A DNA stretch of 64,000 bases from a virus (IMGVR_UViG_3300043446_005051:25427-89426); one strand, 5' to 3'; positions 6,786 through 20,656 are shown, counted from the first letter of the stretch. The notes: generated by a model not told the origin, from the letters alone. Translations and numbers: made by a program.

Positions 6786-6805
6786 GGACAGTTGAAAAAG
6801 CGTCC
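6786..6805 (-). promoter_or_regulatory. palindromic early-promoter motif copy
   Basis: GGACAGTtgaaaaAGCGTCC; TACAAT at 6750-6755 (minus). Confidence 0.65.
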
Positions 6806-6861: not shown

Positions 6862-6880
6862 AAGTGTTATTCAGTTTTAG

Positions 6881-6951
6881 TAGGGACACTGGGGATTGAA
6901 CCCAGACTAACCCGTTATAAGCAGGCCGCTCTACCATTAAGCTATGCCCCC
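6881..6951 (-). tRNA. tRNA-Ile(UAU)
   Basis: Cloverleaf GGGGGCATAGCTTAATGGTAGAGC...loop CTTATAA...GGTTCAATCC; no encoded CCA. Confidence 0.85.
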
Positions 6952-6975
6952 ACATAATTTGCTCTAAAAGAGCAA

Positions 6976-7047
6976 AGCGATAGACGTGATTTGAACACGC
7001 AACCGTCTGGATGGAAGCCAGAAGCTCTACCGTTGAGCTACTATCGC
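6976..7047 (-). tRNA. tRNA-Gly(UCC)
   Basis: GCGATAG acceptor, TCTGG-CTTCCAT-CCAGA anticodon arm, TTCAAAT T-loop. Confidence 0.9.
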
Positions 7048-7085
7048 ATAATTAAAGGAATACTAATGTATTCCTTTGTATATAT

Positions 7086-7244
7086 CTAAACTAGAGAAGG
7101 TATTTCATACTCCACTAGTCTAGAATCGTCCTCGTCATCAAAGTAACCAAGTTCAAGATTCACAAGGTCTTCATAATCAACACCTAGAAAGCGAGTCGCG
7201 AAATCTTCATAGTCATCGTGAAGAAGATAAGAAAATTCAGACAT
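7086..7244 (-). CDS. small acidic hypothetical protein
   Basis: Manually read 52-aa ORF MSEFSYLLHDDYEDFATRFLG... with AGGAGG SD. Confidence 0.6.
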   Translation of the reverse strand: MSEFSYLLHDDYEDFATRFLGVDYEDLVNLELGYFDDEDDSRLVEYEIPSLV

Positions 7245-7316
7245 TTGATCAAGTCCTCCTGTTGTTTCTTGAACGTATGTATGTTACCAGCTGTGAAACT
7301 TATTGTCAACTATGGA

Positions 7317-7338
7317 GTGCCAGTACAAAAAGTGACAC
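7317..7338 (-). promoter_or_regulatory. palindromic early-promoter motif copy
   Basis: GTGCCAGTacaaaaAGTGACAC. Confidence 0.6.
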
Positions 7339-7550
7339 TTGAAATAATTAAACATCAAACACTTTCTCTGAAAGAATCAAATCATCAATGAGTTGAATTT
7401 CCCAGTTTTCCATATGTTCCATTGTTTGGATGAATTGATAGGTCTGAGTCCAGGCTTGACCTGCATCGAGCAGACATTCAAGGTTTTCCATAGATGAATA
7501 ATCAAAATGAAAAGACATAATAAATTAAAACTATGTAAGTTATTTATATA

Positions 7551-7574
7551 AAAGCGGAGTAATTACTCCGCTTT
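7551..7574 (-). terminator. terminator hairpin
   Basis: AAAGCGGAGTAATTACTCCGCTTT perfect palindrome after ORF 7583-7813. Confidence 0.7.
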
Positions 7575-7582
7575 GAACTTAA

Positions 7583-7813
7583 TCAGTCTTCACACTCGTT
7601 TAGAAGTGCATCTTCTTTCTTCTTACGCCGCTTTTCTTCAATTAGAAATTTAAGCTCAAGAATATCCTCATTCAGAATCTCATACTCATCTAACATATTT
7701 TCATACTGAAATGAACTAGTACACTTCTTCATTTTCTTTTGAAGTTTATCGAGTTGCTTCTTTTTTACTTTAAGTTCAGATTCGAGTTCTTTAATGTCTT
7801 TAATAATTTCCAT
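7583..7813 (-). CDS. coiled-coil hypothetical protein
   Basis: 76-aa K/E-rich heptad pattern. Confidence 0.65.
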   Translation of the reverse strand: MEIIKDIKELESELKVKKKQLDKLQKKMKKCTSSFQYENMLDEYEILNEDILELKFLIEEKRRKKKEDALLNECED

Positions 7814-8039
7814 AATTTTGTTGAAATTTGACTTATTTATTCAATATCACCGACGAAAGGAATGAATGAAATAGGAACGGAATACCGTAAAAAGAATAAT
7901 TCCGCTACTTGCAATTCCAATCATACCCAGAAGAGTAATAAGATTGCCGTATTCAAAAGAAAGAGTTTGAACTTCCATTTAATTTGGTTGGTTGAACTTA
8001 ACTAGTTTACAGTAAGATGAGAGTAAAAGGCAAGTAACT

Positions 8040-8061
8040 GTGACAGCTTGGGAACTGTCAC
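8040..8061 (-). promoter_or_regulatory. palindromic early-promoter motif copy
   Basis: GTGACAGcttgggaaCTGTCAC. Confidence 0.65.
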
Positions 8062-8072
8062 AGTTCACATTA

Positions 8073-8420
8073 TCAGTTTGAATTCAATGTACGAGTGATT
8101 CCAAGCTCCTCTAGACGGGCATCCACTCGATTATTGATGAATGCCTCAATATCATTATCAATAGTCTCCATAATGGAAAAAGCAACATCTCGAACTAGAT
8201 TTGAGCCATATTCCTGGCGAATGAATTGAATAAATCGAGTCTTAAACGCATAATCATTATACGCTAGGTCTTTTACAATGTTGAATAATTGGTCAGAATT
8301 AATCGATTTCAGTAGCTCGTCTTTACGGGTTTCTACTTCTTCATATAGGTAATTTAGCCCTGTAATTAGATTATCAATCTGAAGTAGATTGTCGTTGATA
8401 ACGTGAGTATCTTGAGACAT
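8073..8420 (-). CDS. hypothetical helical protein adjacent to Ubl cassette
   Basis: 115-aa ORF with its own motif promoter. Confidence 0.7.
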   Translation of the reverse strand: MSQDTHVINDNLLQIDNLITGLNYLYEEVETRKDELLKSINSDQLFNIVKDLAYNDYAFKTRFIQFIRQEYGSNLVRDVAFSIMETIDNDIEAFINNRVDARLEELGITRTLNSN

Positions 8421-8481
8421 AAATGATGTTTGATTGAGACTTGTACAGTGTAGCAGAGAAGCTGGAAGGGAGAATGATTAT

Positions 8482-8505
8482 AGGGACAGTCAAAAAACTG
8501 TCCCT
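8482..8505 (-). promoter_or_regulatory. palindromic early-promoter motif copy
   Basis: AGGGACAGTcaaaaaACTGTCCCT; TGCTACACT -10 about 30 bp downstream. Confidence 0.7.
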
Positions 8506-8514
8506 GAGTCATAA

Positions 8515-9222
8515 TTAAGAGACGCTAGTCTTCATATTACGAAGGTTGAAGAACATTGAACACTGAGATGGGTCCAGTGTTCCATCGAGAAGGTTTTGAA
8601 TGACCATCAGAGTCATACTTGCTGCAAAGAAGTTTGCTGAAATAAGTTGAGGACGACTCGGTGCATTTAATGCACAACTTCCCGAATGTGGAATACTATC
8701 TTGAGGCTGGTCAATATTTGGATATGCAATAGTTGGATTCATACCAACATTCACATTATCAATTCGGCCCCACCAGAGAGTTTGACCTCGAACTTCTTCA
8801 AGGCCATCGCTATTACCTGGAGTAATATAAAAGAAGTCCTTTCCTTGACGAGTATTATTGATTGCATCAATAATCGCTTTACGTGTTGCGTCATTATCTA
8901 CCGAACAGATAATGACAGGACGCTCTGAATTACGAATCATCGGAATGAAAGTAGATGCAGTGATGAACTGGTCTTTGCATTCAACATCAGTTAGTCCCTG
9001 ATAAGAGCAGAAGTCCTTCATTGCTCGTGCTTTATTCATATTGATTTGAGATTCACCCACAATTTGTCGAGTGAGATTTGAACTCTCGAACGAATCACCA
9101 TCAATAAAAGTTACCTTTGCTCCTTGAGTGTTCGGATGATATGCAACGAGTCGAGCAAGTGGAGCAGCGAGATGCCCACCAGTTCCACCCACGCCAATCA
9201 CAAAGAAATCAGAGAAAAACAT
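8515..9222 (-). CDS. ThiF/E1-family ubiquitin-like activating enzyme
   Basis: GVGGTGG nucleotide-binding loop, DGD..E.SNLTRQ, NKA, SVDN.ATR, candidate catalytic Cys in GSCA; start after AGGAGG SD. Confidence 0.92.
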   Translation of the reverse strand: MFFSDFFVIGVGGTGGHLAAPLARLVAYHPNTQGAKVTFIDGDSFESSNLTRQIVGESQINMNKARAMKDFCSYQGLTDVECKDQFITASTFIPMIRNSERPVIICSVDNDATRKAIIDAINNTRQGKDFFYITPGNSDGLEEVRGQTLWWGRIDNVNVGMNPTIAYPNIDQPQDSIPHSGSCALNAPSRPQLISANFFAASMTLMVIQNLLDGTLDPSQCSMFFNLRNMKTSVS

Positions 9223-9277
9223 AAACCTCCTGTTGGAACGAATCAATGGTAGCAGACGAAGACCGTCAAAAACAAAA

Positions 9278-9305
9278 AGGTGGACAGCTCAAAAACCGTC
9301 CACCT
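9278..9305 (-). promoter_or_regulatory. palindromic early-promoter motif copy (E1 gene)
   Basis: AGGTGGACAGctcaaaaaCCGTCCACCT; TGCTACCAT -10 at 9246-9254. Confidence 0.7.
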
Positions 9306-9315
9306 ACATACAGAA

Positions 9316-10284
9316 TTAAATTTGACCAACTAGATAGTTCTCATCCCTAGATACAAACCATTTTCTATTTACTGCATCTGGAACTGTTTCATAGCCATAA
9401 TAAGTACTTCCATTTTTTTCAATTTGAACCTCCTTTGCAGGAATAATCATAATATGTGGAGAATCCTCAAGAGGTTTATATCCAGCTGAAAGAAGAGTAA
9501 AAAATGCTGGAACATCATATTCAGCGTGTACTATGATTATACTATCAATATCTTCTCCATCACATAGAAAATGTTCAGATTCTAGAAGAGAGAATTCATC
9601 ACTATTTTTTAGATACCTTAGAGTGTCACAATTGGTTTCAAACGTACCTAGAGGTAGAAGGTCATTATTAAATTCACTATTAAAGTAGGTTTGAACTACA
9701 CTTCTGAGATTAGTTGGAGCATTGTTGGACCCCCAGCAAATTCCACCTACTTCATATGCATCCCCAAATACATTGGAAGCCATAAGCAATCGAGTTGCAT
9801 AAATTTTATTGTCCAGAGTATATCCTGAACGAAGATATGCTTTATCTGAATCTAAAGACAGATAAGTTCTAAATCTCCCATTTCTAAATGAAAGATTAAC
9901 TTGAAATACCATATCTGCCACATTCATATGAATTGATACATCTTCGGCATTATTCCCCTCTGGGCATTCTTGACCTGTATAACCTTCTTCATACACCCAA
10001 CAATGATTGTCCTCCCCCCCACTCACATCTGTCCAATCAATATCATCATCTTCATCTTTTCGATTGGAAAGGAATGAATAACAATTTCGATAGCATCCAT
10101 CACAAAATTCATTGTAAAATCCATCTGAATCCATTTCAATATCTTGATGAATATCTTTATAGTTGTCTGGCATCCAAGCATTGATTTTTAGAGAATCTTC
10201 TACTTTATAACTAAAGAATTTTGCTCCTTTTGGTAGAAGATGAACATTTACTTTGGGGGGAACAGTTTGAAAAATTACAGACAT
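9316..10284 (-). CDS. prokaryotic E2-like (Prok-E2 family D / PRTRC protein B-like) protein with Cys-rich N-region
   Basis: SNVFG...GGICWGSN..P.....YFNSEFNNDL motif; start moved to 10284 because the -10 box overlaps ATG 10314. Confidence 0.75.
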   Translation of the reverse strand: MSVIFQTVPPKVNVHLLPKGAKFFSYKVEDSLKINAWMPDNYKDIHQDIEMDSDGFYNEFCDGCYRNCYSFLSNRKDEDDDIDWTDVSGGEDNHCWVYEEGYTGQECPEGNNAEDVSIHMNVADMVFQVNLSFRNGRFRTYLSLDSDKAYLRSGYTLDNKIYATRLLMASNVFGDAYEVGGICWGSNNAPTNLRSVVQTYFNSEFNNDLLPLGTFETNCDTLRYLKNSDEFSLLESEHFLCDGEDIDSIIIVHAEYDVPAFFTLLSAGYKPLEDSPHIMIIPAKEVQIEKNGSTYYGYETVPDAVNRKWFVSRDENYLVGQI

Positions 10285-10346
10285 TTTGGATGAATTCTGT
10301 GTAACTTCAGTCATTGTAGCAGGAAGGGGCGGTGTGGATAAAAAAA

Positions 10347-10370
10347 GGGGACACCTCAAAAAGTGTCCCC
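10347..10370 (-). promoter_or_regulatory. palindromic early-promoter motif copy (E2 gene)
   Basis: GGGGACACctcaaaaaGTGTCCCC; TGCTACAAT -10 at 10313-10321. Confidence 0.7.
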
Positions 10371-10383
10371 CGATATTACTATA

Positions 10384-11466
10384 TCAACTAGTAGCAAAAG
10401 CAGATTCATCAATCTCTTTAGCCGCACTAGTTAGTACATCATAGAGATGGAAGATTTTGTTCAGGTCTTCTGAATTCTGATTAATATAGTCATTAATCAG
10501 GTCTTCAATCTCCCATAGTTTAATAGTTTTATTCCCTTCTACATTCTCGGTATTTAGAGTGCCATTCTCGTTAAAAAAGAATGGGTCATCCATATATTGA
10601 TTGTATCCATCATAATCATTATACTTATAGGTTGCATATTTCTCTAGCCACTTATCATACGAATCTGAATCCCTATGGGATTTACCTCCCTTATACTTTA
10701 CAGGAGAATATTTAATTACAGTTGTAGGAGTACTATAATCCACATATTTTAGAACATCTGGATGAAATGTAACTTCTGAAATTGGAGTGGCATCAATAAG
10801 TTCATCATATTTCAGAAGAAAGCGACGACCATTTCCAACTACGGAAGCTGCAATTGTATATACATTTTTATTTACGTCAATACTTCCTACAACTAGATGA
10901 ATACCAGGGTCTCCTAGCTCATACTTATCGTCAATTCCTGAGAAGAAAGATGGCATAGTATTATGCGAATGACTAGACCCAACAGGAATCCACCCAGAAG
11001 GAGGATAAGATTCAACAACCTCTCCAGTTTCAATGTCAATGGATTCATCAAAGCTATCAATTCGTACAGCGGCTCCAGATACCTTTTGTTTGGGTACAAG
11101 AATCCTATATTTTGATGAATCTTCATCCGAACGAAGAATCCGAATAGAAACTTCAACTTCGTTACTTACTTTATTTACAAAGTGAAAACATAGTTTCACC
11201 CAACGAGACCAAAGTTCTGCTGGAATTTTATGAATATCAGAATTTAGTTCAAAATGTTCAAGATGCTCTTTTGTAATTTCTACATTTGCATCTGGGTCTG
11301 GACAAGAACGAATATACTTACCCCAAGGCCCTTGATACACCTCAAAACATCCATCCAAGGAAGTGCGAAGAATTGAAGGAGGAGTATTCACTAGTTCTTC
11401 TTCAATCTTGATTTCATTAATTTCAAGAGTATCTTCTTCGACCATAGTTTGAATAGTTTCTGACAT
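10384..11466 (-). CDS. JAB/MPN+ metallopeptidase (Ubl-processing/deconjugating)
   Basis: Upstream E (NEVEV), P.Q.VS, JAMM motif GSSHSHNTMPSFFSGIDD. Confidence 0.9.
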   Translation of the reverse strand: MSETIQTMVEEDTLEINEIKIEEELVNTPPSILRTSLDGCFEVYQGPWGKYIRSCPDPDANVEITKEHLEHFELNSDIHKIPAELWSRWVKLCFHFVNKVSNEVEVSIRILRSDEDSSKYRILVPKQKVSGAAVRIDSFDESIDIETGEVVESYPPSGWIPVGSSHSHNTMPSFFSGIDDKYELGDPGIHLVVGSIDVNKNVYTIAASVVGNGRRFLLKYDELIDATPISEVTFHPDVLKYVDYSTPTTVIKYSPVKYKGGKSHRDSDSYDKWLEKYATYKYNDYDGYNQYMDDPFFFNENGTLNTENVEGNKTIKLWEIEDLINDYINQNSEDLNKIFHLYDVLTSAAKEIDESAFATS

Positions 11467-11568
11467 AATAAAAAATAATAAAAGAACTTGGGTATAGAAA
11501 ATAATTTGTATGAAAAAACCCTCAAAGGTTATGTAAACCAATGAGGGATTATCTTAGTTAGTTAGGAG

Positions 11569-11829
11569 TCAGCCCTTTTGCTCGCTGTTAGTTGCAGCAC
11601 GGTAAGATTCACCTGCACGCACAACCTGAGTAGAAGGAACAGCTTCGCCGTTGAGAACGTAACGATTGATACGAGTTACATCGCCCAGTGAGCTAGCATA
11701 CTCAGCGTAAAGCTGGGAAACGGTCTTACCAGTGAATTGAGCAGAGTTTAGTGAAACACTCTCTTCGTTGAAGTAGAGAGTAACAGGGCTCTCGGTGTCA
11801 GCTTGACGGATTTGGGAGAAGAAAGACAT
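11569..11829 (-). CDS. ubiquitin-like (beta-grasp) protein with C-terminal Gly
   Basis: 86 aa; GKTVSQL helix entry, LNGE.V....VV.AGESY strand pattern, ends SEQKG; first gene of JAB-E2-E1 cluster. Confidence 0.8.
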   Translation of the reverse strand: MSFFSQIRQADTESPVTLYFNEESVSLNSAQFTGKTVSQLYAEYASSLGDVTRINRYVLNGEAVPSTQVVRAGESYRAATNSEQKG

Positions 11830-11934
11830 AGTTGGTACTCAGAATAAAGGACAAAGGGGGATGAAAGAAGTTTGTGACCTCTCTCACCGACTCACATACC
11901 GTAGCAGAGGACCGCTCGGAATGGGAGGTGAGGT

Positions 11935-11954
11935 GGACAGTTCAGAAACCGTCC
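11935..11954 (-). promoter_or_regulatory. palindromic early-promoter motif copy (proximal Ubl promoter)
   Basis: GGACAGTtcagaaACCGTCC; TGCTACGGT -10; leader GAGTCGGTGAGAGAGG. Confidence 0.65.
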
Positions 11955-12047
11955 GATTGGTGATGAAGAAAAGAGGTTTCAGCTCTCTTCCCTCTCTCAC
12001 CGACTCCATCAGATTAGCTCATCTGGCCCGTCTCTGGAGTGAACAGT

Positions 12048-12067
12048 GGACACTTCAAAAAGTGGCA
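12048..12067 (-). promoter_or_regulatory. palindromic early-promoter motif copy (distal Ubl promoter)
   Basis: GGACACTtcaaaaAGTGGCA; repeats the same leader GAGTCGGTGAGAGAGG. Confidence 0.6.
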
Positions 12068-12084
12068 TTCGGGTAATTAAAAAC

Positions 12085-12360
12085 TCACTTTTCAATTTCC
12101 CAATTTACATCCTCAGTCATTTTTACCCAAAATGACTGAGAATTCCGAATTGGTTTTAAATGATATGAACCTGATTTAGTTTCAAGAAGTTCACAAGATT
12201 GTAGCCCGAGCATTCGCCTATCGAAATAATCTTCAGCTTCTGCTGTCTTGGGTTTGATCGTAATAAACTTCTTCTTCATTTTCATAAACAAACATCCAAT
12301 CAGAGGGTTCAGTTTCAGTGAGAACTTCAAAAGAGTTCTCATATAGGTCAAAGAACTCAC
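12085..12360 (-). CDS. hypothetical cyanophage-type protein (true start probably at the MKMKKK Met)
   Basis: KFITIKPK..EA...F...M......SFWV...DVNWEI pattern. Confidence 0.6.
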   Translation of the reverse strand: MSSLTYMRTLLKFSLKLNPLIGCLFMKMKKKFITIKPKTAEAEDYFDRRMLGLQSCELLETKSGSYHLKPIRNSQSFWVKMTEDVNWEIEK

Positions 12361-12462
12361 ATTCTTCGACCTGTGAATTTATCATAAAAGAGAAGGACAT
12401 CTCTCATAATGAAAAAGACCTCTTGAGTCTACCAGCTAACTCAAGAGGTCTCGGGGTGTTGT

Positions 12463-12482
12463 GTGCCAGTTTGAAAACTGGC
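12463..12482 (-). promoter_or_regulatory. palindromic early-promoter motif copy
   Basis: GTGCCAGTttgaaaACTGGC. Confidence 0.65.
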
Positions 12483-13172
12483 TTAGAATTGATGAAGCTG
12501 TCTGGAATTTACATCGTATATGGATAATTTACCATTCGCATCCCCGCAACAACTATCTAATACAATTGATTTGTTGTTTAAATCAATTGTTAAATTTCTA
12601 TAATGCCCTGCAACTCGAATAAAAGATTGCTCTTGATTATTTTGAGTCCACCATTCTATTCTATTTCTTTTTAAGTCTTGAGTTCCATATAGAAATTGAT
12701 GCTTATGGTCTTTCTTAATTGCACGAATGAAGTGTTCTTCTTCATATTGAGGAACTTTGATTTCATCACTAAAGTAAGCGTGAGCGCATCGGAACTCTAC
12801 ATCGTAGATGTCTTTAAATACAATTCCAAACGGCTGACGAATTAACCAATCATAAAGGTCATCTAATGAAATGTGATTTGATAATTCAGAGATAGTAGTA
12901 TCCAACCCATTGTTGAGTAAAATTTGATTTCCCCTTAAGTATCGAATTAATTTATCTTGATGATTACTTTGCAGTACAATTGCATTTAAATTCAATTCGG
13001 CTTCTTTAACCAGCTCATAAACTCCAAAAGAATCTGAATAGGAATTCTTGGAATCAAACAAATCTCCGAGAAAAACTACTCTTGAGTTTTTAATTTCCTT
13101 TTGAATGAATTTAAGCGCAGCTTTAAGATTCTTTGCTTGAGAATGCACATCCCCGATGAGTACATAATTCAT
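12483..13172 (-). CDS. calcineurin-like metallophosphoesterase (Ser/Thr phosphatase-like)
   Basis: GDVH, GDLFD, SNHQ, HA, AGHY, LDS motifs. Confidence 0.9.
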   Translation of the reverse strand: MNYVLIGDVHSQAKNLKAALKFIQKEIKNSRVVFLGDLFDSKNSYSDSFGVYELVKEAELNLNAIVLQSNHQDKLIRYLRGNQILLNNGLDTTISELSNHISLDDLYDWLIRQPFGIVFKDIYDVEFRCAHAYFSDEIKVPQYEEEHFIRAIKKDHKHQFLYGTQDLKRNRIEWWTQNNQEQSFIRVAGHYRNLTIDLNNKSIVLDSCCGDANGKLSIYDVNSRQLHQF

Positions 13173-13228
13173 TTTCTTCGAACATATAATCTATCTATAC
13201 TAGCACATTCACCAAGAAAACGAAAAAA

Positions 13229-13256
13229 AAGAGGACACTTTCTGAAGTGTCCTCTT
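13229..13256 (-). promoter_or_regulatory. palindromic early-promoter motif copy
   Basis: AAGAGGACACTTtctgAAGTGTCCTCTT; TGCTAGTAT -10 near 13197-13205. Confidence 0.65.
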
Positions 13257-13404
13257 CACTATAGATTAGAGCCGTCTCTAAATCCAAAGATATATCCAAT
13301 GTAAATTCCGGCAAAAAATGCAACGAAAAGATAAAGGCTTCGAGCAAGTTGTTGAGTTACTTCTGTAAGTTCAGGATTCATTTCAATTTAATTTATAATG
13401 AAAA

Positions 13405-13476
13405 AGCCCCATGATGGAAATTGAACCATCCTTTCCGCTTTACAAGAGCGGTACATCGCCACTATGTTTATGAGGC
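13405..13476 (-). tRNA. tRNA-Thr(UGU)
   Basis: GCCTCAT acceptor, CCGCT-CTTGTAA-AGCGG arm, GGTTCAATT T-loop. Confidence 0.85.
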
Positions 13477-13485
13477 AGGGTTAAA

Positions 13486-13761
13486 TTAATCTACAGGAAG
13501 ACAATCTGGATTTATATATTCAAGCTCATACATTAAAGGATGTGCTTCTTCTACTGCTAGATAACTTGAATATAAGTATATCTCTTCATCTGTATATCTT
13601 TTATTTCGAGAAGCTTCTTCAATGACTTCTGGATTATCTTCTTCTATTTTGGGTAATTCATCAAATGTATAAGGTATTTCTTGAATAAAATACATTTTTA
13701 CAATAAAACTTTCAAGTTGAGTATCAATCCAACGATAGCCAATGCTAAGTTTGTATTTCAT
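13486..13761 (-). CDS. conserved cyanophage-type hypothetical protein
   Basis: IVKMYFI..IP.TFDEL...YL..EEAHP pattern. Confidence 0.7.
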   Translation of the reverse strand: MKYKLSIGYRWIDTQLESFIVKMYFIQEIPYTFDELPKIEEDNPEVIEEASRNKRYTDEEIYLYSSYLAVEEAHPLMYELEYINPDCLPVD

Positions 13762-13782
13762 TCGAGAAAGAACTTATACATC

Positions 13783-14307
13783 TTATCTATTTAGATAAGA
13801 GATAGGTAAATATAAAGTTCCGTACTTCTCAAATACATCTTTAAATCGTTTTAAATCTTTACCTAGATATATGAATGCCGATTGAAAAGGTGCAGCACTT
13901 TTACCATTTCCAAATTTAAGTCTTTTATTGATTGCAATCCAAGGATATTCCGAAACCGAGTTCCACCATTTTGTAGATACATCTAATTTAATTAGTAAAA
14001 TTAATTCCTTAGAATGACCTAATTCATATTGACGAACTGCATATGGAACCCATAATTTACTTTCACTATATGGATGATTCATAAATACGCTTTCTGCAGT
14101 CCATTTATGAGCTAATCCATTTGTTTCTTCAGTATAAACTCTTTTAGCTGGAATATTTGGATGAATATCTGAATCTGAACAAGGGTCTAAATCAAGTTGA
14201 TGATTGAAGAACGTAAGAACATCATTTACAATTTCTTGAGGAGTATTCCAACAATCGTGACGTGTTCCAGTGGTAGAGGTTAGAGCTTTAAGTGATAAAG
14301 ATGGCAT
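13783..14307 (-). CDS. phage DNA N6-adenine methyltransferase (Dam family)
   Basis: WNTP, DLDPC, GL..W...FMNHPYS (NPPY variant), RLKF, APF.S. Confidence 0.85.
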   Translation of the reverse strand: MPSLSLKALTSTTGTRHDCWNTPQEIVNDVLTFFNHQLDLDPCSDSDIHPNIPAKRVYTEETNGLAHKWTAESVFMNHPYSESKLWVPYAVRQYELGHSKELILLIKLDVSTKWWNSVSEYPWIAINKRLKFGNGKSAAPFQSAFIYLGKDLKRFKDVFEKYGTLYLPISYLNR

Positions 14308-14669
14308 AGAATTAATTCTTAATCATATATTCAACAGTAGTTGCAATATCATTCATTGCATCTCTTAAATCAGGTCTTTGTCCAGATTCTTGTTTAAGAA
14401 TCGGTCTATCATCTTTAACAAGAGTCCATCTCCATTGAGACATAGACTCACACCACCATAAGTTGATTTTCATTAATTTTATCGTATTCAGTTTTGATTC
14501 GGTTCAATAAATCACTCAATTCTCCTTTTAGAGGTTCAGTTAAAAATGCTTCATTTGCAAAAATATAAAAATCTATTGCATCATAAGCAATTTTACGGTC
14601 TCGTTGAGACATTAATGTCATAACTTAATTTAGATGTTGTAAATATTTAATAAGAACTCCAAACCTTAT

Positions 14670-14770
14670 TTCTCCTGTACTCAGGAGTCCACAAATGGCA
14701 GAGGAGAAAACCTCCAAAGTTTGTTCAGGGTTCTTATTTTGGAAGACCCGAACATTTCCAGTTCTTCCAA
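14670..14770 (-). ncRNA. putative structured RNA trailer of tRNA-Asn (pseudoknot + hairpins)
   Basis: TTGGAAGA/TCTTCCAA stem; TGTTCGGGT can pair with ACCCTGAACA; CTCCTG-AGTA-CAGGAG hairpin. Confidence 0.4.
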
Positions 14771-14843
14771 CTCCCCCAGTCCGCCTCGAACGAACAACCC
14801 CAGTGTTAACAGCACCGTGCTCTACCAATTGAGCTATAGGGGA
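14771..14843 (-). tRNA. tRNA-Asn(GUU)
   Basis: TCCCCTATAGCTCAATTGGTAGAGC, loop CTGTTAA, TTCGAGG T-loop. Confidence 0.9.
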
Positions 14844-14925
14844 ATGATGGAGTAAGTGTATATAAGTCTCATAAGGACTTATCAGGGACTTACCCTCTAT
14901 CATAGTATATATATTACATCAGTTT

Positions 14926-15351
14926 TTAGATTGTGTCAAGAGGGATTTCCAAATAATTTTCTGCTAAATGTATTTTATTCTTTTGATTATTTTTTGGAGC
15001 AGATAATCTTAAATTGAATGTTTTATTGCATTCTTGTGGATTTACATAATAACATTTATCAGTATCGGGGCAATATACGCACATTATATCAATTTCATTT
15101 TTATCATAATCTTGTGTATGAGTTCCGTTCTTATCCGCCCAACAAGTTCTAAAAGAAACTTCTATTTTATCATTTTTTGCTGTTCTATATTTAACCTGTA
15201 TTCTTAAAAACTTTCCATCTTTATATACAACAAGGTCAAATGGAGAATGTTCTGTATGAGGAGTAAGTATTAAATATCCCTTTTCATACAGGTCAAGTTG
15301 TGCCTTTAATACCCCCAAATCTCCTTTATTTTTAGTATGATGTTCTCTCAT
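14926..15351 (-). CDS. free-standing PD-(D/E)XK homing endonuclease, I-Ssp6803I-like
   Basis: TKNKGDLG...L..KGY....P......FDLVV......RIQVK motif; TATAAATA late promoter at 15373-15380. Confidence 0.85.
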   Translation of the reverse strand: MREHHTKNKGDLGVLKAQLDLYEKGYLILTPHTEHSPFDLVVYKDGKFLRIQVKYRTAKNDKIEVSFRTCWADKNGTHTQDYDKNEIDIMCVYCPDTDKCYYVNPQECNKTFNLRLSAPKNNQKNKIHLAENYLEIPLDTI

Positions 15352-15412
15352 AAAATTTAAATGTCTTATAAGTATTTATAAGACTAACAACTTACACATA
15401 TGTTAGTTAAAA

Positions 15413-15485
15413 CAGGCGTATCAGGATTCGAACCTGAGATGAGGAGGTAGAAGCTCCTAGTGATAATCCACTTCACCATACGCCC
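15413..15485 (-). tRNA. tRNA-Arg(UCU)
   Basis: GGGCGTA acceptor, AGGAG-CTTCTAC-CTCCT arm, GGTTCGAATCC. Confidence 0.9.
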
Positions 15486-15489
15486 ATAA

Positions 15490-15568
15490 TAGACCTCCAG
15501 GTTTGTGCATCGTTGAGAGGCATAGGAGGGGTGGGACTTAAACGACGTTTGGACCGCCGTTGCCCATA
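15490..15568 (-). ncRNA. putative structured leader RNA upstream of tRNA-Arg
   Basis: TGGG-AACGGCG/CGTCGTT-CCCA hairpin and CCTCC/GGAGG-closed hairpin; GC-rich for this genome. Confidence 0.4.
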
Positions 15569-15609
15569 AAAGTAATTTATCAGATGACCCCAACTTTGTC
15601 AACTGTATT

Positions 15610-15629
15610 GTGCCAGTTGCAAAAGTGGC
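15610..15629 (-). promoter_or_regulatory. palindromic early-promoter motif copy
   Basis: GTGCCAGTtgcaaaAGTGGC with TTGACA (minus) just downstream at 15597-15602. Confidence 0.65.
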
Positions 15630-15640
15630 TTTTTGATATT

Positions 15641-16030
15641 TTATTTAGGATATCGAATATATGCATTACTTATTTCAAAATTACGAGTTTTACCTTTATT
15701 TGGTACAAATCCGTGTCCTGAATAAAACTTTTTAAGTTTCTCTTTATAATTCTTTTCTGGAGCTTGGTCTAATGACATAGAAGCTCCAATTTTATCTGCG
15801 TGTTTTGTAAGCCCTTTCATAATTCGTCCTCCTACACCTTTACCTCTAAGATGCTTGGGTACCCATATATCGTGAACTTGAATGTTTGGTTTTCCTTTAA
15901 ATTCTTTTTTTGAAAGATACAAATTTAAACCTTGATAACCAGGTCGTTTTTCCCATTTTCTTGAAATAGTTTTATGTGCGTCAGGCTTCGCAGATTTAGC
16001 TTCTTTTATGAATTGCTTAAAAGTTTTCAT
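15641..16030 (-). CDS. GNAT-family acetyltransferase with capsid-targeting-like N-terminus
   Basis: V...LRGKGVG acetyl-CoA motif, L.KFY..HGF; starts MKTFKQFIKEA. Confidence 0.85.
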   Translation of the reverse strand: MKTFKQFIKEAKSAKPDAHKTISRKWEKRPGYQGLNLYLSKKEFKGKPNIQVHDIWVPKHLRGKGVGGRIMKGLTKHADKIGASMSLDQAPEKNYKEKLKKFYSGHGFVPNKGKTRNFEISNAYIRYPK

Positions 16031-16037
16031 AGTCGGT

Positions 16038-16481
16038 TCAGGTTAAATAAGACCTTAACTTATAAACAAAGACACCGTGAGCTTCCATTAAATCTTGAAC
16101 AAGATTTGCAGTGGCGTAACTTCTTTGATTTTCAGCTTCTTCAGAAATATCTTTTAACAATTCAACAATCTTTTGATTATCACTCAACAATTGTTGAACC
16201 ATTCCTTTTGCATCAATAACTTGATTACCATTCGCTGGGCCATCAATAGATGAGACTTCAACCATTCGAGTCATTGTTGACACAGGTCGAATATTTAAAT
16301 ATCGCATATGTTCTGAAATTCTATCAACCTCCTCAAACATTGCTTCATATTGAGCACCAAATAATTCATGAAGTTGTGGAAAATCAGTTCCAGTTACATT
16401 CCAATGATAGTTCCAAGTTTTTTGAAATAAAACAAATAAAGATGCTTGAGTATCAGAAAGTAATTTGTATAGTTTTTCCAT
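16038..16481 (-). CDS. dps: Dps / ferritin-like DNA-protection protein
   Basis: YHWNVTG.DF.QLH.LF..QY...DRISE ferroxidase signature; TATAAATA at 16496-16503. Confidence 0.92.
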   Translation of the reverse strand: MEKLYKLLSDTQASLFVLFQKTWNYHWNVTGTDFPQLHELFGAQYEAMFEEVDRISEHMRYLNIRPVSTMTRMVEVSSIDGPANGNQVIDAKGMVQQLLSDNQKIVELLKDISEEAENQRSYATANLVQDLMEAHGVFVYKLRSYLT

Positions 16482-16498
16482 TATACTTTTTTTATTAT

Positions 16499-16903
16499 TT
16501 ATAAAGATTGCTCTCTGGTAACACGTTTAAAGTCTTTAAGAACTCCATCAACGAAATGAAGTCTACATCTAGGCCAATCATGCCAATCTCCATCCCACGT
16601 TGCAGGATATACTTCTATATATTTGGTGATTTTATGAGGAACATATCTTCCATTTTTTCCAGTAGGGATCCATTCAAAATTTAAAAATTTTGATTTTTCA
16701 TTATATCGTTCATCATTTTTTGAAATCTCTTCAAATGTATGAGTACCAATATAATCAGGTCTCCATAGCTGACCTGCAGGGTCCAACCAATAGAGAGTCA
16801 TTGTGCCGCCAATTCCATATTCAATGTCTTTTGTCTGGCAATATACGTTTGTAAACTCTTCTCCTAGATTATAGGAAGAGCGAAAATCATCGAACATACC
16901 CAA
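16499..16903 (-). CDS. conserved phage hypothetical protein
   Basis: MGMFD...QTKD...Y.LDP.G.L...F.DG.L pattern. Confidence 0.75.
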   Translation of the reverse strand: MGMFDDFRSSYNLGEEFTNVYCQTKDIEYGIGGTMTLYWLDPAGQLWRPDYIGTHTFEEISKNDERYNEKSKFLNFEWIPTGKNGRYVPHKITKYIEVYPATWDGDWHDWPRCRLHFVDGVLKDFKRVTREQSL

Positions 16904-17089
16904 TTACGAATCCTCCTGTTTTGAACTAAAATAAATTTTATAGTAGCGTTTTTTCATACCTTCTATTAAATTCATATCATCTTCAAATCCCATATATTTA
17001 AGTAATTGATAAGACCCTTCTAATTCACTAATAAGTCTTAATACATTAGTGGGGGACCTTTCGAGTCCCCCAAAAGAGTAAATATTCAT
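16904..17089 (-). CDS. cyanophage-type hypothetical protein
   Basis: FGGLER.P.NVLRLISELEGSYQL.KYMGF pattern. Confidence 0.7.
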   Translation of the reverse strand: MNIYSFGGLERSPTNVLRLISELEGSYQLLKYMGFEDDMNLIEGMKKRYYKIYFSSKQEDS

Positions 17090-17322
17090 ACTAAATCATT
17101 TTCAATATCCAATTCATTAATATGAACTTTTTCTCTTTTTGAATAGAGTTTTGAATAACTACAAATTTTACACTTGGGATTTCCACAATCTAAAGGGTCT
17201 TGTTTAAAGATTCGTCCAAAAGAAAGAGAATTGTCTGGAATAAATTCAAAATGTTTGTGTAACTTTTTCCACTTATTTTGAAGTCGTTTTGCTTGATGAC
17301 GTTGATAAGCAGTTTTAGCCAT
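17086..17322 (-). CDS. hypothetical protein with CGNPKC..C motif
   Basis: 78-aa ORF. Confidence 0.65.
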   Translation of the reverse strand: MAKTAYQRHQAKRLQNKWKKLHKHFEFIPDNSLSFGRIFKQDPLDCGNPKCKICSYSKLYSKREKVHINELDIENDLV

Positions 17323-17339
17323 TCATTGAAGGTTTAGCT

Positions 17340-17543
17340 TTATTTAGAACTCACAAAAGTATTAATTTTATTTGCTAGTACTTCAATCTTTTCATAAGAA
17401 GGAAATTCTGGATATGCCATTTTCACTGTATTATGTGGATTCTCATTCCACAAAGAAACAATAGAATACTCTGCTTGATATTCAGACTCCGCAAGAGCCT
17501 GAGCTTGCTCAAAAATTTTAAATCGAAGTTCGTAAGGTGTCAT
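17340..17543 (-). CDS. conserved phage hypothetical protein
   Basis: MTPYELRF.IF.QA...FP....I..LA.KIN.FVS; start after AGGA SD. Confidence 0.75.
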   Translation of the reverse strand: MTPYELRFKIFEQAQALAESEYQAEYSIVSLWNENPHNTVKMAYPEFPSYEKIEVLANKINTFVSSK

Positions 17544-17594
17544 AATTTTATTCCTGTGTGTATGATGTGTGAAATTTGCTAATACGATTAGCAA

Positions 17595-17668
17595 TACCCG
17601 AGGTCGGATTCGAACCGACGACTGCTCGATTTTAAGTCGAGAACCTCATTCCGCTGGGTCACTCGGGC
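17595..17668 (-). tRNA. tRNA-Leu(UAA), short variable arm
   Basis: GCCCGAG acceptor, CTCGA-CTTAAAA-TCGAG, GTCGG-TTCGAAT-CCGAC; 74 nt. Confidence 0.85.
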
Positions 17669-17669
17669 A

Positions 17670-18296
17670 AAAAGGGCTTTAGTGCGTCTATTCCCTGGTG
17701 CATCTGTGTTATTCCAAGCTGGAACATAATCGCACATCTCGTCGTATCCGAGTTCAGATGCTTCCCCACTCATTTAATCTAATGAGCAAATCAAATAATT
17801 GAATTCACCTTCTATGCTTGCGACCCTGATTTGATCAGAATCTAGCCTCGTACATCTTCTAACTTTCTATACCGTGAATATAGTCTGTCAGAGGTCTTAC
17901 GACACAATCACCCATTTTCACAGATGACGTTAGGGGCTTCGGCTTCATCAATTGCAGTTTGCCTAATGTACCACCCGAAGGAACGATACACGGTGCTTTC
18001 ACGGCGATTCCTTAACCGAAGAATCGTTTACCGTCCTATTTCTGGGATAACTACTGTAATTCACCAGTCATATAAGAAGCATTCACTATTGGCGTTGTGC
18101 TCACTCTCATATGCTACTTACGGTATCTGCTTCCGCCAAGAAGAATTAACCGATAGAAGATTGGTGGAGTTGGCCGAGGCAATCACCTCTAGTCTCCATC
18201 TTCCTTTCCCTTATACATCTTACGATGCCTGACCCTCATAGATTAGAAGTCAGTTTTCTAAGACCTTTTCAATCTTAGGGGAGGGACAATCCCGAT
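17670..18296 (-). ncRNA. large structured ncRNA candidate (GOLLD/ROOL-like context)
   Basis: ~630 nt without credible ORF, GC-enriched, many hairpins with GNRA/UUCG loops, own sigma70-type promoter, between tRNAs. Confidence 0.65.
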
Positions 18297-18331
18297 AAGA
18301 CAACCATAGAGTAAAACTCTTGAGTTGTCAA
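18296..18331 (-). promoter_or_regulatory. sigma70-type promoter within inverted repeat
   Basis: TTGACA-17bp-TATGGT; GACAAC...GTTGTC arms. Confidence 0.65.
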
Positions 18332-18403
18332 TGGTTCTGGAAAGACTTGAACTTTCTTCAGCCCCTTATAAGGAGGCGGCCTTAACCCATAGGCGACAGA
18401 ACC
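18332..18403 (-). tRNA. tRNA-Ile(UAU), second distinct gene
   Basis: GGTTCTG/CAGAACC acceptor, GCCTC-CTTATAA-GGGGC arm, TTCAAGT T-loop. Confidence 0.8.
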
Positions 18404-18405
18404 AA

Positions 18406-18441
18406 TAAGACAATCATAAGACCTAAATCTCAGATTGTCAA
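18406..18441 (-). promoter_or_regulatory. sigma70-type promoter within inverted repeat
   Basis: TTGACA-17bp-TATGAT; GACAATC...GATTGTC arms; homologous to 18296-18331. Confidence 0.7.
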
Positions 18442-18442
18442 G

Positions 18443-18524
18443 TCCTCGTTTTCAGACTCGAACTGAAACTCCTTTCGGAAGTGGTTTTTGAGACCACTGC
18501 GGCTACCGATTACGCCAAACGAGG
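18443..18524 (-). tRNA. tRNA-Leu(CAA)
   Basis: CCTCGTT acceptor, GTGGT-CTCAAAA-ACCAC, long variable arm TCCGAAAGGA. Confidence 0.9.
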
Positions 18525-18592
18525 TATTAAGTGAACGTGGCCTCAACCACCTTCATAGATTACCACTCACTCAGATGGAAGTCAAGAGATGT

Positions 18593-18614: not shown

Positions 18615-18621
18615 CTTAATA

Positions 18622-20629: not shown

Positions 20630-20656
20630 GTAGACAACACTATATATGTTGTCAAA

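What the first reader, a model, noticed from the sequence alone, without database searches (positions are those of the whole stretch)
8515..11829. Complete ubiquitin-like conjugation cassette (Ubl-JAB-E2-E1) encoded by a lytic T4-like phage
Seen: four adjacent co-oriented genes encoding a beta-grasp protein ending in Gly (SEQKG), a JAMM peptidase (HSH-x7-S-x2-D), an E2-like protein with a GGICWG Cys, and a ThiF/E1 enzyme (GxGGxG, NLxRQ, VDN, SC). No ThiS/MoaD sulfur-cofactor partners (ThiG, MoaE, cysteine synthase) are nearby. Established: this gene set matches prokaryotic Ubl systems such as the PRTRC cassette (Prok-E2 family D) and the Bil/Bub anti-phage operons, normally described in bacterial chromosomes and mobile elements. 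Inference: the phage carries its own protein-conjugation pathway. Ubl, E2 and E1 each sit behind the phage's early-type promoter motif, so the cassette looks domesticated. It may tag host proteins for takeover or degradation, counter host Ubl/CBASS-type defences, or exclude competing phages.
Basis: partly seen in the sequence, partly recalled or inferred. Interest (0 to 1): 0.93.

Follow-up and report, generated by a model that had tools for sequence, protein, structure and literature searches.

The report
Cyanophage ubiquitin-like protein-tagging gene cassette
An uncultured freshwater T4-like cyanophage carries a conserved five-gene set that looks like a complete kit for activating, carrying, attaching and trimming a small ubiquitin-like protein, a distant relative of the plasmid "PRTRC" cassette for which I know of no experimental study; what it tags is unknown.

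Summary
A fifth small gene after E1 belongs to the set: it follows E1 in 14 of 14 related viral loci.

E1 is a ThiF-family enzyme whose best NCBIfam match is PRTRC_ThiF. JAB has an intact, invariant JAMM site. The 86-aa protein ends in an invariant Lys-Gly, followed in relatives by 0-2 variable residues.

The "E2" gives no direct hit to any family. Its profile matches the active-site segment of genuine Prok-E2_D/PRTRC_B proteins (hhalign 87-95%). Asn171, Cys183, Asn206 and Asp208 are invariant in 104 sequences.

Order and strand are kept in 14 IMG/VR loci and in a 63% G+C phage contig. Two complete carrier genomes encode psbA.

No sulfur-relay partner and no ParB was found.

Verdict: a diverged, phage-borne PRTRC/"operon type 6d" Ubl system. 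It is not Bil, Bub or CBASS. Conjugation is inferred, not shown.

This scan has already reported PRTRC-type cassettes in other phages. This is a distinct cyanophage variant.

The parts
11569..11829 (-). Ubl: 86-aa small protein ending in invariant Lys85-Gly86 (Gly codon 11572-11574)
   Evidence: ORF. Homologues: 35 at 62-100% identity. K85 and G86 are invariant and 0-2 variable residues follow in relatives. ESM Atlas nearest clusters are ThiS-bearing, score 0.91 (a lead only). The Pfam ThiS model hits 1 of 24 members at E 3.4e-3. In complete genome G002 the only ThiS hit lies inside its cassette Ubl gene, E 2.4e-3. Codon bias ranks 1 of 73 ORFs.
11513..11547 (-). Terminator-like hairpin (stem 11547-11519) plus U6 directly after the Ubl stop codon
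   Evidence: Sequence. RNA fold -16.1 kcal/mol, z -3.9, and 0 of 200 shuffles fold as well. The pattern scan did not list it.
10384..11466 (-). JAMM/MPN+ peptidase, 360 aa from the ATG at 11466 (the ORF is open from TTG 11541). A conserved N-terminal domain precedes the JAB core and a variable C-terminal region follows it.
   Evidence: Pfam Prok-JAB E 3e-4, 21.1 bits, below the 25-bit cut-off. NCBIfam PRTRC_A E 1.5e-3. Invariant in 8 of 8 aligned orthologues: E105, H166, H168, S176, D179, and R34, W48, R53 in the N-terminal domain. Coordinates.
9316..10284 (-). E2-like protein, 322 aa from MSVIFQ (alternative ATG at 10314; ORF open from TTG 10359). N-terminal Cys4 module (C61, C64, C95, C107), then a core with N171, C183-W184, N206 and D208, then a C-terminal extension.
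   Evidence: No direct family hit. hhalign against genuine Prok-E2_D/PRTRC_B proteins gives 87.5% (A2) and 94.9% (A3) over about 40 active-site columns. Of 104 family members, 5 hit Pfam Prok-E2_D, best E 2.2e-6. Invariant residues. Cys183 codon is 9736-9738.
8515..9222 (-). E1-like ThiF-family adenylating enzyme, 235 aa from the ATG at 9222 (behind AGGAGG)
   Evidence: Pfam ThiF E 3.2e-11, above its cut-off. Best NCBIfam match is PRTRC_ThiF, 5.3e-14, aligned end to end but at 52 bits against a 144.75 cut-off. Invariant in 7 of 7 orthologues: the G-x-G-G-x-G-G loop, R52, Q53, K64, D109-N110-D111, C72, C183.
8073..8420 (-). Fifth cassette gene: 115-aa fast-diverging protein of unknown family
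   Evidence: Present after E1 in 14 of 14 related loci. No credible Pfam or NCBIfam match. The alignment shows one conserved N-terminal motif and little else. Its own palindrome lies at 8484-8503.
11935..12067 (-). Two copies of the palindromic motif (12048-12067 and 11935-11954), each followed by the same leader, upstream of Ubl
   Evidence: One RNA-library contig spans 11552-12026, which is only a weak hint.
10349..10368 (-). Palindromic motif between JAB and E2, followed by a T-run and then CTGCTACAAT
9282..9301 (-). Palindromic motif between E2 and E1, followed by a T-run and then CTGCTACCAT

Best explanation
This is a phage-encoded ubiquitin-like protein conjugation module, a diverged relative of the PRTRC / 'operon type 6d' cassettes of plasmids.

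Proposed working; all biochemical steps are inferred:
1. The phage makes the 86-aa Ubl in large amounts. The gene has its own two upstream motif copies, strongly optimised codons and its own terminator-like hairpin.
2. The ThiF-type E1 adenylates the C-terminal Gly86, possibly forming a thioester on its invariant Cys183.
3. The Ubl passes to Cys183 of the E2-like protein, with invariant Asn171 and Asp208 completing the active site.
4. The E2 then attaches the Ubl to lysines of target proteins. Its fused Cys4 module, its C-terminal extension and perhaps the fifth small protein would choose the target.
5. The JAMM peptidase trims the 1-2 residue tails that follow the Gly in many relatives, and removes the Ubl from conjugates.

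The targets are unknown: they could be host proteins, phage proteins, or both.
For: - Gene content and order: Ubl-JAB-E2-E1 in the same order and strand in 14 of 14 IMG/VR loci, about 10 distinct sequences. Ubl was seen in 12 of 14; the other two loci start at a contig end. The same holds in a 243-kb contig and a 4-kb MAG contig and in a 63% G+C contig.
- Ubl: invariant K85-G86, then 0-2 variable residues.
- JAB: JAMM residues invariant.
- E1: adenylation motifs and Cys183 invariant; best family is PRTRC_ThiF.
- E2: the active-site segment aligns to genuine Prok-E2_D/PRTRC_B. Five of 104 members hit Pfam Prok-E2_D. N171, C183, N206 and D208 are invariant in 104 sequences.
- No PP-loop thiolase, rhodanese or MoaE in this record or in two complete carrier genomes.
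- Ubl codon bias ranks 1 of 73 ORFs, and a hairpin follows its stop codon.
- Parallel in another phage: Bacillus phage vB_BceM_WH1 has a five-repeat poly-Ubl with each repeat ending ...TKG, close to E2-like, JAB and E1 genes.
- The five-part make-up matches the description of operon type 6d in Iyer et al. 2006 (PMC1779556, section 14 read).
Against: - No fold was obtained.
- The window's E2 and Ubl give no direct hit to Prok-E2_D, PRTRC_B, PRTRC_C or ThiS.
- The E2 link rests on about 40 aligned columns.
- PDB sequence and profile searches for E2, Ubl and JAB found nothing relevant.
- The ESM Atlas's own E2 model is poor (pLDDT 0.44) and has no structural neighbour above TM 0.29.
- hhalign finds no likeness between this Ubl family and the Bacillus phage poly-Ubl.
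- The histidine downstream of the Cys that marks type-6d E2s is an Asp here.
- I know of no experiment showing conjugation by any PRTRC-type system (recalled). My literature searches did not ask that question; none of the 20 PRTRC titles and abstract openings listed concerns its biochemistry.
- Expression evidence is limited to contigs from two RNA libraries, which may contain DNA.
Confidence: 0.7

Rival explanations
1. Sulfur-carrier system. E1 adenylates the Ubl, which is turned into a thiocarboxylate that donates sulfur, for example to a tRNA, DNA or cofactor modification, as ThiS/ThiF, MoaD/MoeB or TtuB/TtuC do. The JAB would only mature the carrier.
For: E1's next-best family matches are ThiF and MoeB models. 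The weak ThiS signals for the Ubl fit a carrier as well as a modifier. Ten tRNA genes lie around the cassette.
Against: An invariant-Cys E2-like protein is always present between JAB and E1. No PP-loop ATPase, rhodanese or MoaE was found in this record or in two complete carrier genomes. ThiG and cysteine synthase were not searched for genome-wide. The flanking genes with a family hit are not sulfur enzymes. The host could still supply the partners.
Confidence: 0.1
2. Counter-defence device rather than a tagging system in its own right. The JAB strips host Bil-type or CBASS-type Ubl conjugates from phage proteins, and the phage Ubl/E1/E2 pre-empt or jam the host machinery, for example by capping the lysines that the host would tag.
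For: Bacterial Ubl systems act in anti-phage immunity (abstracts of PMC10557695 and PMC11601596). The cassette lies in a region of small genes and tRNA genes with its own regulatory motifs. The Ubl looks very highly expressed.
Against: A deconjugating JAB alone would suffice for stripping, yet all five genes are kept together. No likeness to Bil components beyond the ThiF domain was found. The distribution of Bil or CBASS type II in the hosts was not examined.
Confidence: 0.15
3. Not a transfer cascade. The E1 modifies the C-terminus of the small protein in an MccB-like way, giving a peptide-nucleotide or amide product. The 'E2' would be an unrelated Zn-binding Cys protein.
For: MccB is among the closest solved E1 relatives by sequence, E 0.03. 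The window's E2 has no direct E2-family hit.
Against: The best solved match is a plain ThiF-type protein, E 0.002. The E2 profile aligns to Prok-E2_D exactly at the Asn...Cys-Trp-Gly segment. The Gly terminus with trimmed tails and a JAMM partner is the Ubl signature.
Confidence: 0.03

Closest known systems
PRTRC cassette (NCBIfam TIGR03735 PRTRC_A, TIGR03736 PRTRC_ThiF, TIGR03737 PRTRC_B, TIGR03738 PRTRC_C), which appears by gene content to be 'operon type 6d' of Iyer, Burroughs & Aravind 2006 (PMC1779556)
   Same: Same five parts as the paper describes (section 14):
- a small Ubl with a C-terminal Gly;
- a JAB with an extra N-terminal domain that carries conserved Arg and Trp;
- an E2-like protein with a conserved Cys and no classical His;
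- a short E1 without a rhodanese domain;
- a fast-diverging small protein. That this fifth phage protein is helical or homologous to the paper's was not tested.

E1's best family is PRTRC_ThiF, aligned end to end. The E2 active-site segment aligns to PRTRC_B/Prok-E2_D.
   Different: - All scores are far below the curated cut-offs, or absent.
- Gene order is Ubl-JAB-E2-E1-X, against E2-JAB-E1 in the Leptolyngbya plasmid.
- The E2 has an added invariant Cys4 module and a C-terminal extension.
- Asp208 stands where the plasmid E2s have an invariant His.
- No ParB was found.
- It is carried by T4-like cyanophages, not plasmids or ICEs.
PRTRC-like cassettes of other large phages: Bacillus phage vB_BceM_WH1 (LC597490), and more distantly Salmonella phage Arash and Vibrio phages D69, D181, D148
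   Same: They are phage-borne. In vB_BceM_WH1, gp214 hits the E2 profiles (5.5e-7 for A3, 3e-4 for A4), gp215 hits the JAB profile including its N-terminal domain, and gp216 is the E1 at 29% identity. Its Ubl units also end in Lys-Gly.
   Different: - The order there is E2-JAB-E1.
- The Ubl is a five-repeat polyprotein about 4 kb upstream.
- No detectable sequence likeness exists between the two Ubl families.
- The window's E2 finds no match in 50,697 phage records.
- JAB finds only 4 records, none covering 80% of the query.
Bil (BilABCD) anti-phage ubiquitination system
   Same: The logic is the same: Ubl + E1 + E2 + JAB-type DUB, with the DUB pre-processing the Ubl to expose its Gly (abstract of PMC10557695).
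   Different: - The Bil E1 has an inactive plus an active adenylation domain and a mobile Cys domain. Here there is one 235-aa domain.
- The PADLOC BilD model matches only residues 12-126, and no BilA, BilB or BilC model matches.
- Bil is bacterial defence; this cassette is phage-encoded.
CBASS type II Cap2/Cap3
   Same: The E1 ThiF domain is related to Cap2 E1-E2 models, PADLOC E down to 1.5e-11. A JAB partner is present.
   Different: Cap2 is an E2-E1 fusion that conjugates the CD-NTase itself and has no free Ubl (abstract of PMC10097602, seen in the listing). Here E1 and E2 are separate, a free Ubl exists, and no CD-NTase lies in the cassette.
Bub pathways
   Same: They are Ubl + E1 + E2 operons of bacteria.
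   Different: Bub works through oxyester intermediates and a Ser-His protease (abstract of PMC11601596). Here Cys183 of E2 and the JAMM residues are invariant. No Bub model was available to test.
ThiS/ThiF and MoaD/MoeB sulfur-carrier pairs; lambda-type tail-assembly Ubl (TAPI) with JAB (TAPK)
   Same: The ThiF-family E1 is shared. A small protein with a C-terminal Gly is shared. TAPI/TAPK shows that phages pair a Ubl with a JAB (PMC1779556, passages).
   Different: An E2-like protein is present here. No sulfur acceptor enzymes were found. The cassette is about 13 kb or more from the nearest tail or baseplate genes identified (35.6-63.3 kb); the large ORFs in between were not annotated.

Membership tests
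PRTRC cassette / operon type 6d | ThiF-family E1 of the PRTRC_ThiF type (TIGR03736) | tested here: inconclusive
   It is the best NCBIfam hit and aligns end to end (residues 15-239 against model positions 15-237 of 245), E 5.3e-14. The score is 52.1 bits against a cut-off of 144.75.
PRTRC cassette / operon type 6d | E2-like protein of Pfam Prok-E2_D / NCBIfam PRTRC_B | tested here: inconclusive
   Direct models give no hit on the protein or on the record. Profile-profile comparison gives 87.5% and 94.9% over about 40 active-site columns. Five of 104 family members hit Prok-E2_D, best E 2.2e-6.
PRTRC cassette / operon type 6d | Absolutely conserved His downstream of the E2 Cys (Iyer et al. 2006) | tested here: not met
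   In the hhalign alignment the plasmid family's invariant His200 pairs with the phage family's invariant Asp208 (invariance).
PRTRC cassette / operon type 6d | JAB peptidase with an N-terminal domain carrying conserved Arg and Trp (PRTRC_A) | tested here: inconclusive
   The JAMM site is intact, and R34, W48 and R53 are invariant in the N-terminal domain. PRTRC_A scores only E 1.5e-3, 18 bits, against a cut-off of 101.8.
PRTRC cassette / operon type 6d | Small Ubl with a C-terminal Gly (PRTRC_C) | tested here: inconclusive
   The C-terminal Gly is invariant. The PRTRC_C model gives no hit on the record.
PRTRC cassette / operon type 6d | Linked ParB-related gene (the 'PR' of the name, recalled) | tested here: not met
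   No ParB_N (PF02195) was found in this record or in two complete carrier genomes.
Ubiquitin-like beta-grasp (ThiS/MoaD/Ub) superfamily | Beta-grasp fold | not testable with these tools
Indirect evidence only: ESM Atlas neighbours carry ThiS at score 0.91; ThiS hits at E 3.4e-3 in 1 of 24 members and at E 2.4e-3 on G002's orthologue. PDB profile searches found nothing.
UBC/E2 superfamily | UBC fold with the catalytic Cys after a four-strand meander | not testable with these tools
The Atlas's own model has pLDDT 0.44 and no neighbour above TM 0.29. PDB profile searches found nothing.
Bil (BilABCD) | Two-domain E1 (BilD) plus BilA Ubl, BilB E2 and BilC DUB | tested here: not met
   The PADLOC BilD model matches E1 residues 12-126 only, E 1.2e-5. 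No PADLOC model matches the Ubl, the JAB or the E2. The E1 is 235 aa.
CBASS type II (Cap2/Cap3) | E2-E1 fusion protein next to a CD-NTase | tested here: not met
   E1 and E2 are separate genes. Cap2-type PADLOC models match only the ThiF part. None of the five cassette genes or of the flanking genes scanned gave a nucleotidyltransferase hit in Pfam.
ThiS/ThiF or MoaD/MoeB sulfur transfer | Equivalog-level E1 and a sulfur acceptor or donor partner | tested here: not met
   ThiF and MoeB models score 16-40 bits against cut-offs of 152-647. No PP-loop ATPase, rhodanese or MoaE in three records. ThiG and CysM were not searched.

The most novel reading that the evidence does not exclude
A virus-side ubiquitin system in bacteria. 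Soon after infection the cyanophage floods the cell with its own Ubl. An E2 that carries its own zinc-type targeting module, acting as an E2/E3 hybrid, covalently tags host proteins to take the cell over. Alternatively it tags the phage's own virion proteins, shielding them from host Ubl-based immunity. This would be the bacterial counterpart of what eukaryotic viruses do with ubiquitin, and the mirror image of the Bil defence.
Probability: 0.3. Interest if true: 0.9.

Novelty: new variant of a known kind. Interest (0 to 1): 0.72.

Why it matters
The bacterial ubiquitin-like conjugation systems whose abstracts I read (Bil, Bub; the CBASS Cap2 abstract opening) are presented as host defences against phages. 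A complete, conserved, apparently highly expressed Ubl/E1/E2/JAB set carried by phages themselves would put the same chemistry on the attacking side.

It would also give a handle on the PRTRC-type family. That family is widespread on plasmids and, according to this scan's earlier reports, in many large phages. I know of no biochemical study of it (recalled).

This cyanophage version has useful distinguishing marks:
- a free single-unit Ubl ending in Lys-Gly;
- an E2 with a fused Cys4 module;
- an Asp in place of the family's His;
- a fifth linked gene.

Five small genes could be expressed together in E. coli to ask whether conjugates form and on what. The carriers are freshwater cyanophages with psbA, so the targets may bear on how phages reprogramme photosynthetic hosts.

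Tried and rejected
I therefore could not confirm that metagenomic Ubls at 85-91% identity sit on the same contigs as E2s at 38-49% identity. Equal contig lengths suggest it. I do not claim that the Ubl is unusually conserved: in the 14 loci it is 49-69% identical, against 64-71% for E1.
- PDB searches with profiles of E2 (A2, A3), Ubl (A1, A7), JAB (A5) and E1 (A6) gave nothing useful.
- Direct models PF14460, TIGR03737 and TIGR03738 on the record gave no hit.
- PHROGs gave one weak hit of unknown function to E1 and nothing for the other three proteins.
- DNA search of the cassette against phage records found no match.
- The genome-contig scan with E1 gave 5 loci, of which only one 4-kb MAG contig carries the cassette. 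I read that contig as binned phage DNA.
- hhalign of the Ubl family against the Bacillus phage poly-Ubl found no likeness.
- The exact palindrome is not kept in relatives: only 3 of 46 loci match, and one of these is the window's own locus.
- RNA evidence: contigs of two metatranscriptome libraries cover the Ubl gene and, in one library, parts of JAB, E2 and the fifth gene. Positions 8534-9628, which include nearly all of E1, are uncovered. Contig depth cannot rank genes and DNA may be present in such libraries, so I use this only as a weak hint.
- Habitat labels (freshwater, aquaculture, estuary, reservoir) come from 20 holder runs in 12 studies. Two of those runs may be the source sample.
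- The 'structural protein' labels on the Arash E1 relative rest on mass spectrometry of a particle preparation in which 116 proteins were called (PMC10585845, passages only). I take them as evidence of expression at most.
- Literature: searches found no paper on a cyanophage Ubl cassette. Searches found nothing on PDB entry 9EGC or on phage vB_BceM_WH1.
- Rows dropped: alignment A3 holds the window protein plus 103 of the 132 hits. I left out the 21 best hits (close family) and 8 fragments of 72-186 aa. A2 holds the window protein plus 43 of the 83 hits. A1 holds 24 of the 35 hits.

Full report
**What is in the sequence**

Four ORFs lie head to tail on the minus strand:
- 11829..11569, 86 aa;
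- 11541..10384, 385 aa from a TTG;
- 10359..9316, 347 aa from a TTG;
- 9246..8515, 243 aa from a TTG.

Orthologue alignments place the likely starts as follows:
- JAB at the ATG at 11466, giving 360 aa;
- E2 at 10284 (MSVIFQ, 322 aa) or possibly 10314;
- E1 at 9222, giving 235 aa, four bases after an AGGAGG.

- the Ubl ends SEQKG;
- JAB has H166-S-H168-x7-S176-x2-D179, with E105 upstream;
- E2 has GGICWG with Cys183;
- E1 has GVGGTGG, NLTRQ, VDND and GSCA (Cys183).

**The carrier**

- The window is part of an 89,426-bp IMG/VR viral record that CheckV rates 42% complete.
- Its large genes match T4-type baseplate and tail PHROGs.
- One tail protein finds 438 phage records, nearly all Synechococcus or Prochlorococcus myoviruses, with a best identity of only 42%.
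- Two complete viral genomes with the same cassette, of 284 kb and 224 kb, encode Photo_RC (psbA-type) genes.
- Runs holding near-identical DNA are labelled freshwater, aquaculture, estuary or reservoir. There are 20 holders in 12 studies, and two of the runs may be the source sample.

So this is an uncultured, mostly freshwater lineage of T4-like cyanophages. 'Lytic' is an inference from that kinship.

**A fifth gene**

The 115-aa ORF at 8420..8073, directly after E1, has a homologue after E1 in 14 of 14 related loci. It has no credible family match. It diverges fast apart from one N-terminal motif. Operon type 6d of Iyer et al. 2006 also contains a fast-diverging small helical protein (PMC1779556, section 14). 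Whether the two are homologous was not tested.

**Conservation**

- A pattern scan of IMG/VR with the E2 alignment gave 14 confirmed loci out of 144 pattern matches.
- JAB-E2-E1 are in the same order and strand in all 14 loci. The Ubl precedes them in 12; the other two loci begin at a contig end.
- Several loci are near-identical to each other (L010-L013; L007 and L015), so about ten distinct versions were seen.
- Identity to the window's proteins is 49-69% for Ubl, 52-58% for JAB, 40-49% for E2 and 64-71% for E1.
- A scan with E1 added a 243-kb contig that carries the whole set.
- A scan with a distant E2 subfamily found a 90-kb viral contig of 63% G+C with Ubl (ending SESKG), JAB, E2 and E1 in the same order. 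The module therefore crosses very different phage and host backgrounds.
- Among one genome per prokaryote species, only a single 4-kb MAG contig carries it.
- Among 50,697 phage records, E2 has no match. E1 matches five records at under 30% identity. JAB matches four records partially.

**E1**

- Pfam ThiF matches at 3.2e-11, above its cut-off.
- The best NCBIfam model is PRTRC_ThiF, aligned end to end at 5.3e-14 but only 52 bits against a cut-off of 144.75. ThiF and MoeB models follow.
- PADLOC models of Cap2 and BilD match only the nucleotide-binding part.
- Invariant in seven orthologues: the glycine loop, R52-Q53, K64, D109-N110-D111, and two cysteines, C72 and C183.
- There is no CxxC pair.
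- The nearest solved relatives by sequence are weak: a ThiF-type protein (9egc) at E 0.002 and MccB at 0.03.

**JAB**

- Pfam Prok-JAB scores 3e-4, just under its cut-off. PRTRC_A scores 1.5e-3.
- E105, H166, H168, S176 and D179 are invariant in eight orthologues. So are R34, W48 and R53 in a conserved N-terminal domain. This recalls the 'JAB-N' domain with conserved Arg and Trp described for type 6d.

**Ubl**

- No direct family hit.
- Across 24 and 20 aligned homologues, K85 and G86 are invariant. The protein then either ends or continues for one or two variable residues: A, V, S, F, HL, VN, AF, SV, LG or VY. That is the signature of a modifier whose Gly must be exposed.
- Weak independent signals point to the ThiS family:
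  - the ESM Atlas neighbours carry ThiS at score 0.91 with 179 shared features, a lead only;
  - one of 24 members hits Pfam ThiS at 3.4e-3;
  - in complete genome G002 the sole ThiS hit, at 2.4e-3, falls inside the cassette's Ubl gene (coordinates).
- The fold itself could not be tested.

**E2**

This is the weakest link, so I tested it most.

- The window's protein has no direct match. PDB profile searches are empty. The Atlas's own model is poor.
- An exhaustive profile search found 132 representatives at E <= 1e-3.
- In an alignment of the window's protein with 103 of them, N171, C183, N206 and D208 are invariant and W184 and G185 nearly so.
- Five of these 104 sequences hit Pfam Prok-E2_D, best E 2.2e-6.
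- I then took a genuine member as reference. On a Leptolyngbya plasmid the gene directly upstream of an MPN gene and a ThiF gene scores 94 bits on Prok-E2_D and has PRTRC_B as its best NCBIfam model. Its 11 homologues all carry PF14460, and one is named PRTRC protein B.
- hhalign of the phage profiles against that family gives 87.5% (E 3.6e-6) and 94.9% (E 4.7e-8). The alignment pairs (S/P)NV(F/Y)G...ICWG...P...(S)xF. It spans only about 40 columns.
- In it, the plasmid family's invariant His200 faces the phage family's invariant Asp208.
- The phage E2s also carry four invariant cysteines (C61, C64, C95, C107) ahead of the core, kept even in the distant subfamily.

**Expression design**

- The palindrome GGACNNTTTYTGANNTGTCC occurs 8 times against 0.13 expected.
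- Five copies lie before Ubl (two copies), before E2, before E1 and before the fifth gene. At four of these sites CTGCTACNNT follows within about 20-35 nt; the distal Ubl copy has a different -10-like sequence.
- JAB has no copy. It sits behind a hairpin plus U6 that follows the Ubl stop codon (-16.1 kcal/mol, z -3.9).
- The copies after JAB and after E2 also satisfy a terminator pattern, so promoter, operator and terminator roles are all open.
- The Ubl gene has the most biased codons of 73 ORFs: C-ending two-fold pyrimidine codons 0.81 against a median of 0.20, five of five Arg codons CGY, and G+C 0.48 against 0.35. This fits very high expression, or a foreign origin.
- Contigs from two RNA libraries cover the Ubl gene. 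In one library they also cover parts of JAB, E2 and the fifth gene. The tool warns that this does not prove transcription.

**Against a sulfur-carrier reading**

No PP-loop ATPase, rhodanese or MoaE is found in this record or in the two complete carrier genomes. The flanking genes with a family hit are a metallophosphoesterase and a Dam methylase. The E2-like gene is never missing from the loci examined.

**Comparison with known systems**

- The make-up fits operon type 6d / PRTRC, but no curated PRTRC model is met. The marker His is replaced, the gene order differs, and ParB is absent.
- Bil, CBASS-Cap2 and Bub differ in architecture or chemistry.
- Other phages carry cousins. In Bacillus phage vB_BceM_WH1, gp214, gp215 and gp216 match my E2, JAB and E1 profiles. 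About 4 kb upstream, gp211 is five tandem PRTRC_C-like units, each ending QAGTKG. Its Ubl units nevertheless show no sequence likeness to this family.
- This scan's earlier reports describe PRTRC-type cassettes in many other large phages. By sequence look-up, none of them shares this E2.

**Verdict**

The best reading is a phage-encoded Ubl conjugation module of a diverged PRTRC type. The adenylation, thioester and trimming residues are all conserved, but no fold and no biochemistry were checked.

I found no paper on such a cassette in cyanophages.

Noticed in passing
L008:6152-6392 (also L009 and L043, same position in the gene): The JAB gene of some related phages is interrupted by a group I intron directly after the His-Ser-His codons of the JAMM site. 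Rfam RF00028 scores 63.3 bits, E 1.3e-15, with the whole model matched. The ORF is split at the same place in L009 and in L043.
   Followed up: partly
L026:1327-2226 (Bacillus phage vB_BceM_WH1 gp211, LC597490 178788-179687): A 'virion structural protein' is in fact five tandem PRTRC_C-like Ubl units, each ending QAGTKG, with a short tail after the last. It resembles polyubiquitin and lies about 4 kb upstream of E2-like, JAB and E1 genes.
   Followed up: partly
window 6786-6805, 13233-13252 (+), 22738-22757: Further copies of the palindromic motif lie outside the cassette. Seven of the 8 copies cluster between 6.7 and 13.3 kb. The exact motif is not kept in related phages.
   Followed up: partly
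L047 (IMGVR_UViG_3300035670_000105, 90 kb): A viral contig whose fetched 13.2-kb locus has 63% G+C carries the same Ubl-JAB-E2-E1 order, and its Ubl also ends SESKG. Its host and phage type were not examined.
   Followed up: no
window 6880-20731: Ten tRNA genes lie on the minus strand around the cassette, including two tRNA-Ile(UAU) genes.
   Followed up: no
window 35629-36828 and 37508-38764: Two proteins with strong RCC1-like repeat matches (PHROG 'regulator of chromosome condensation', E 2e-68 and 2e-44) sit among the tail-fibre genes.
   Followed up: no
window 25613-32962: A single 2449-aa ORF on the minus strand. It was not examined.
   Followed up: no
window 12483-13172 and 13783-14307: A calcineurin-like metallophosphoesterase (E 1.2e-6) and a Dam-type N6-adenine methyltransferase (E 5e-21) flank the cassette upstream.
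   Followed up: no
L048 (Salmonella phage Arash, OQ632216): A distant E1 relative (gp246c, 27% identity) and the neighbouring gp248c are annotated as 'structural'. The paper based this label on mass spectrometry of particle preparations in which 116 proteins were called. At most this suggests that the proteins are made.
   Followed up: partly
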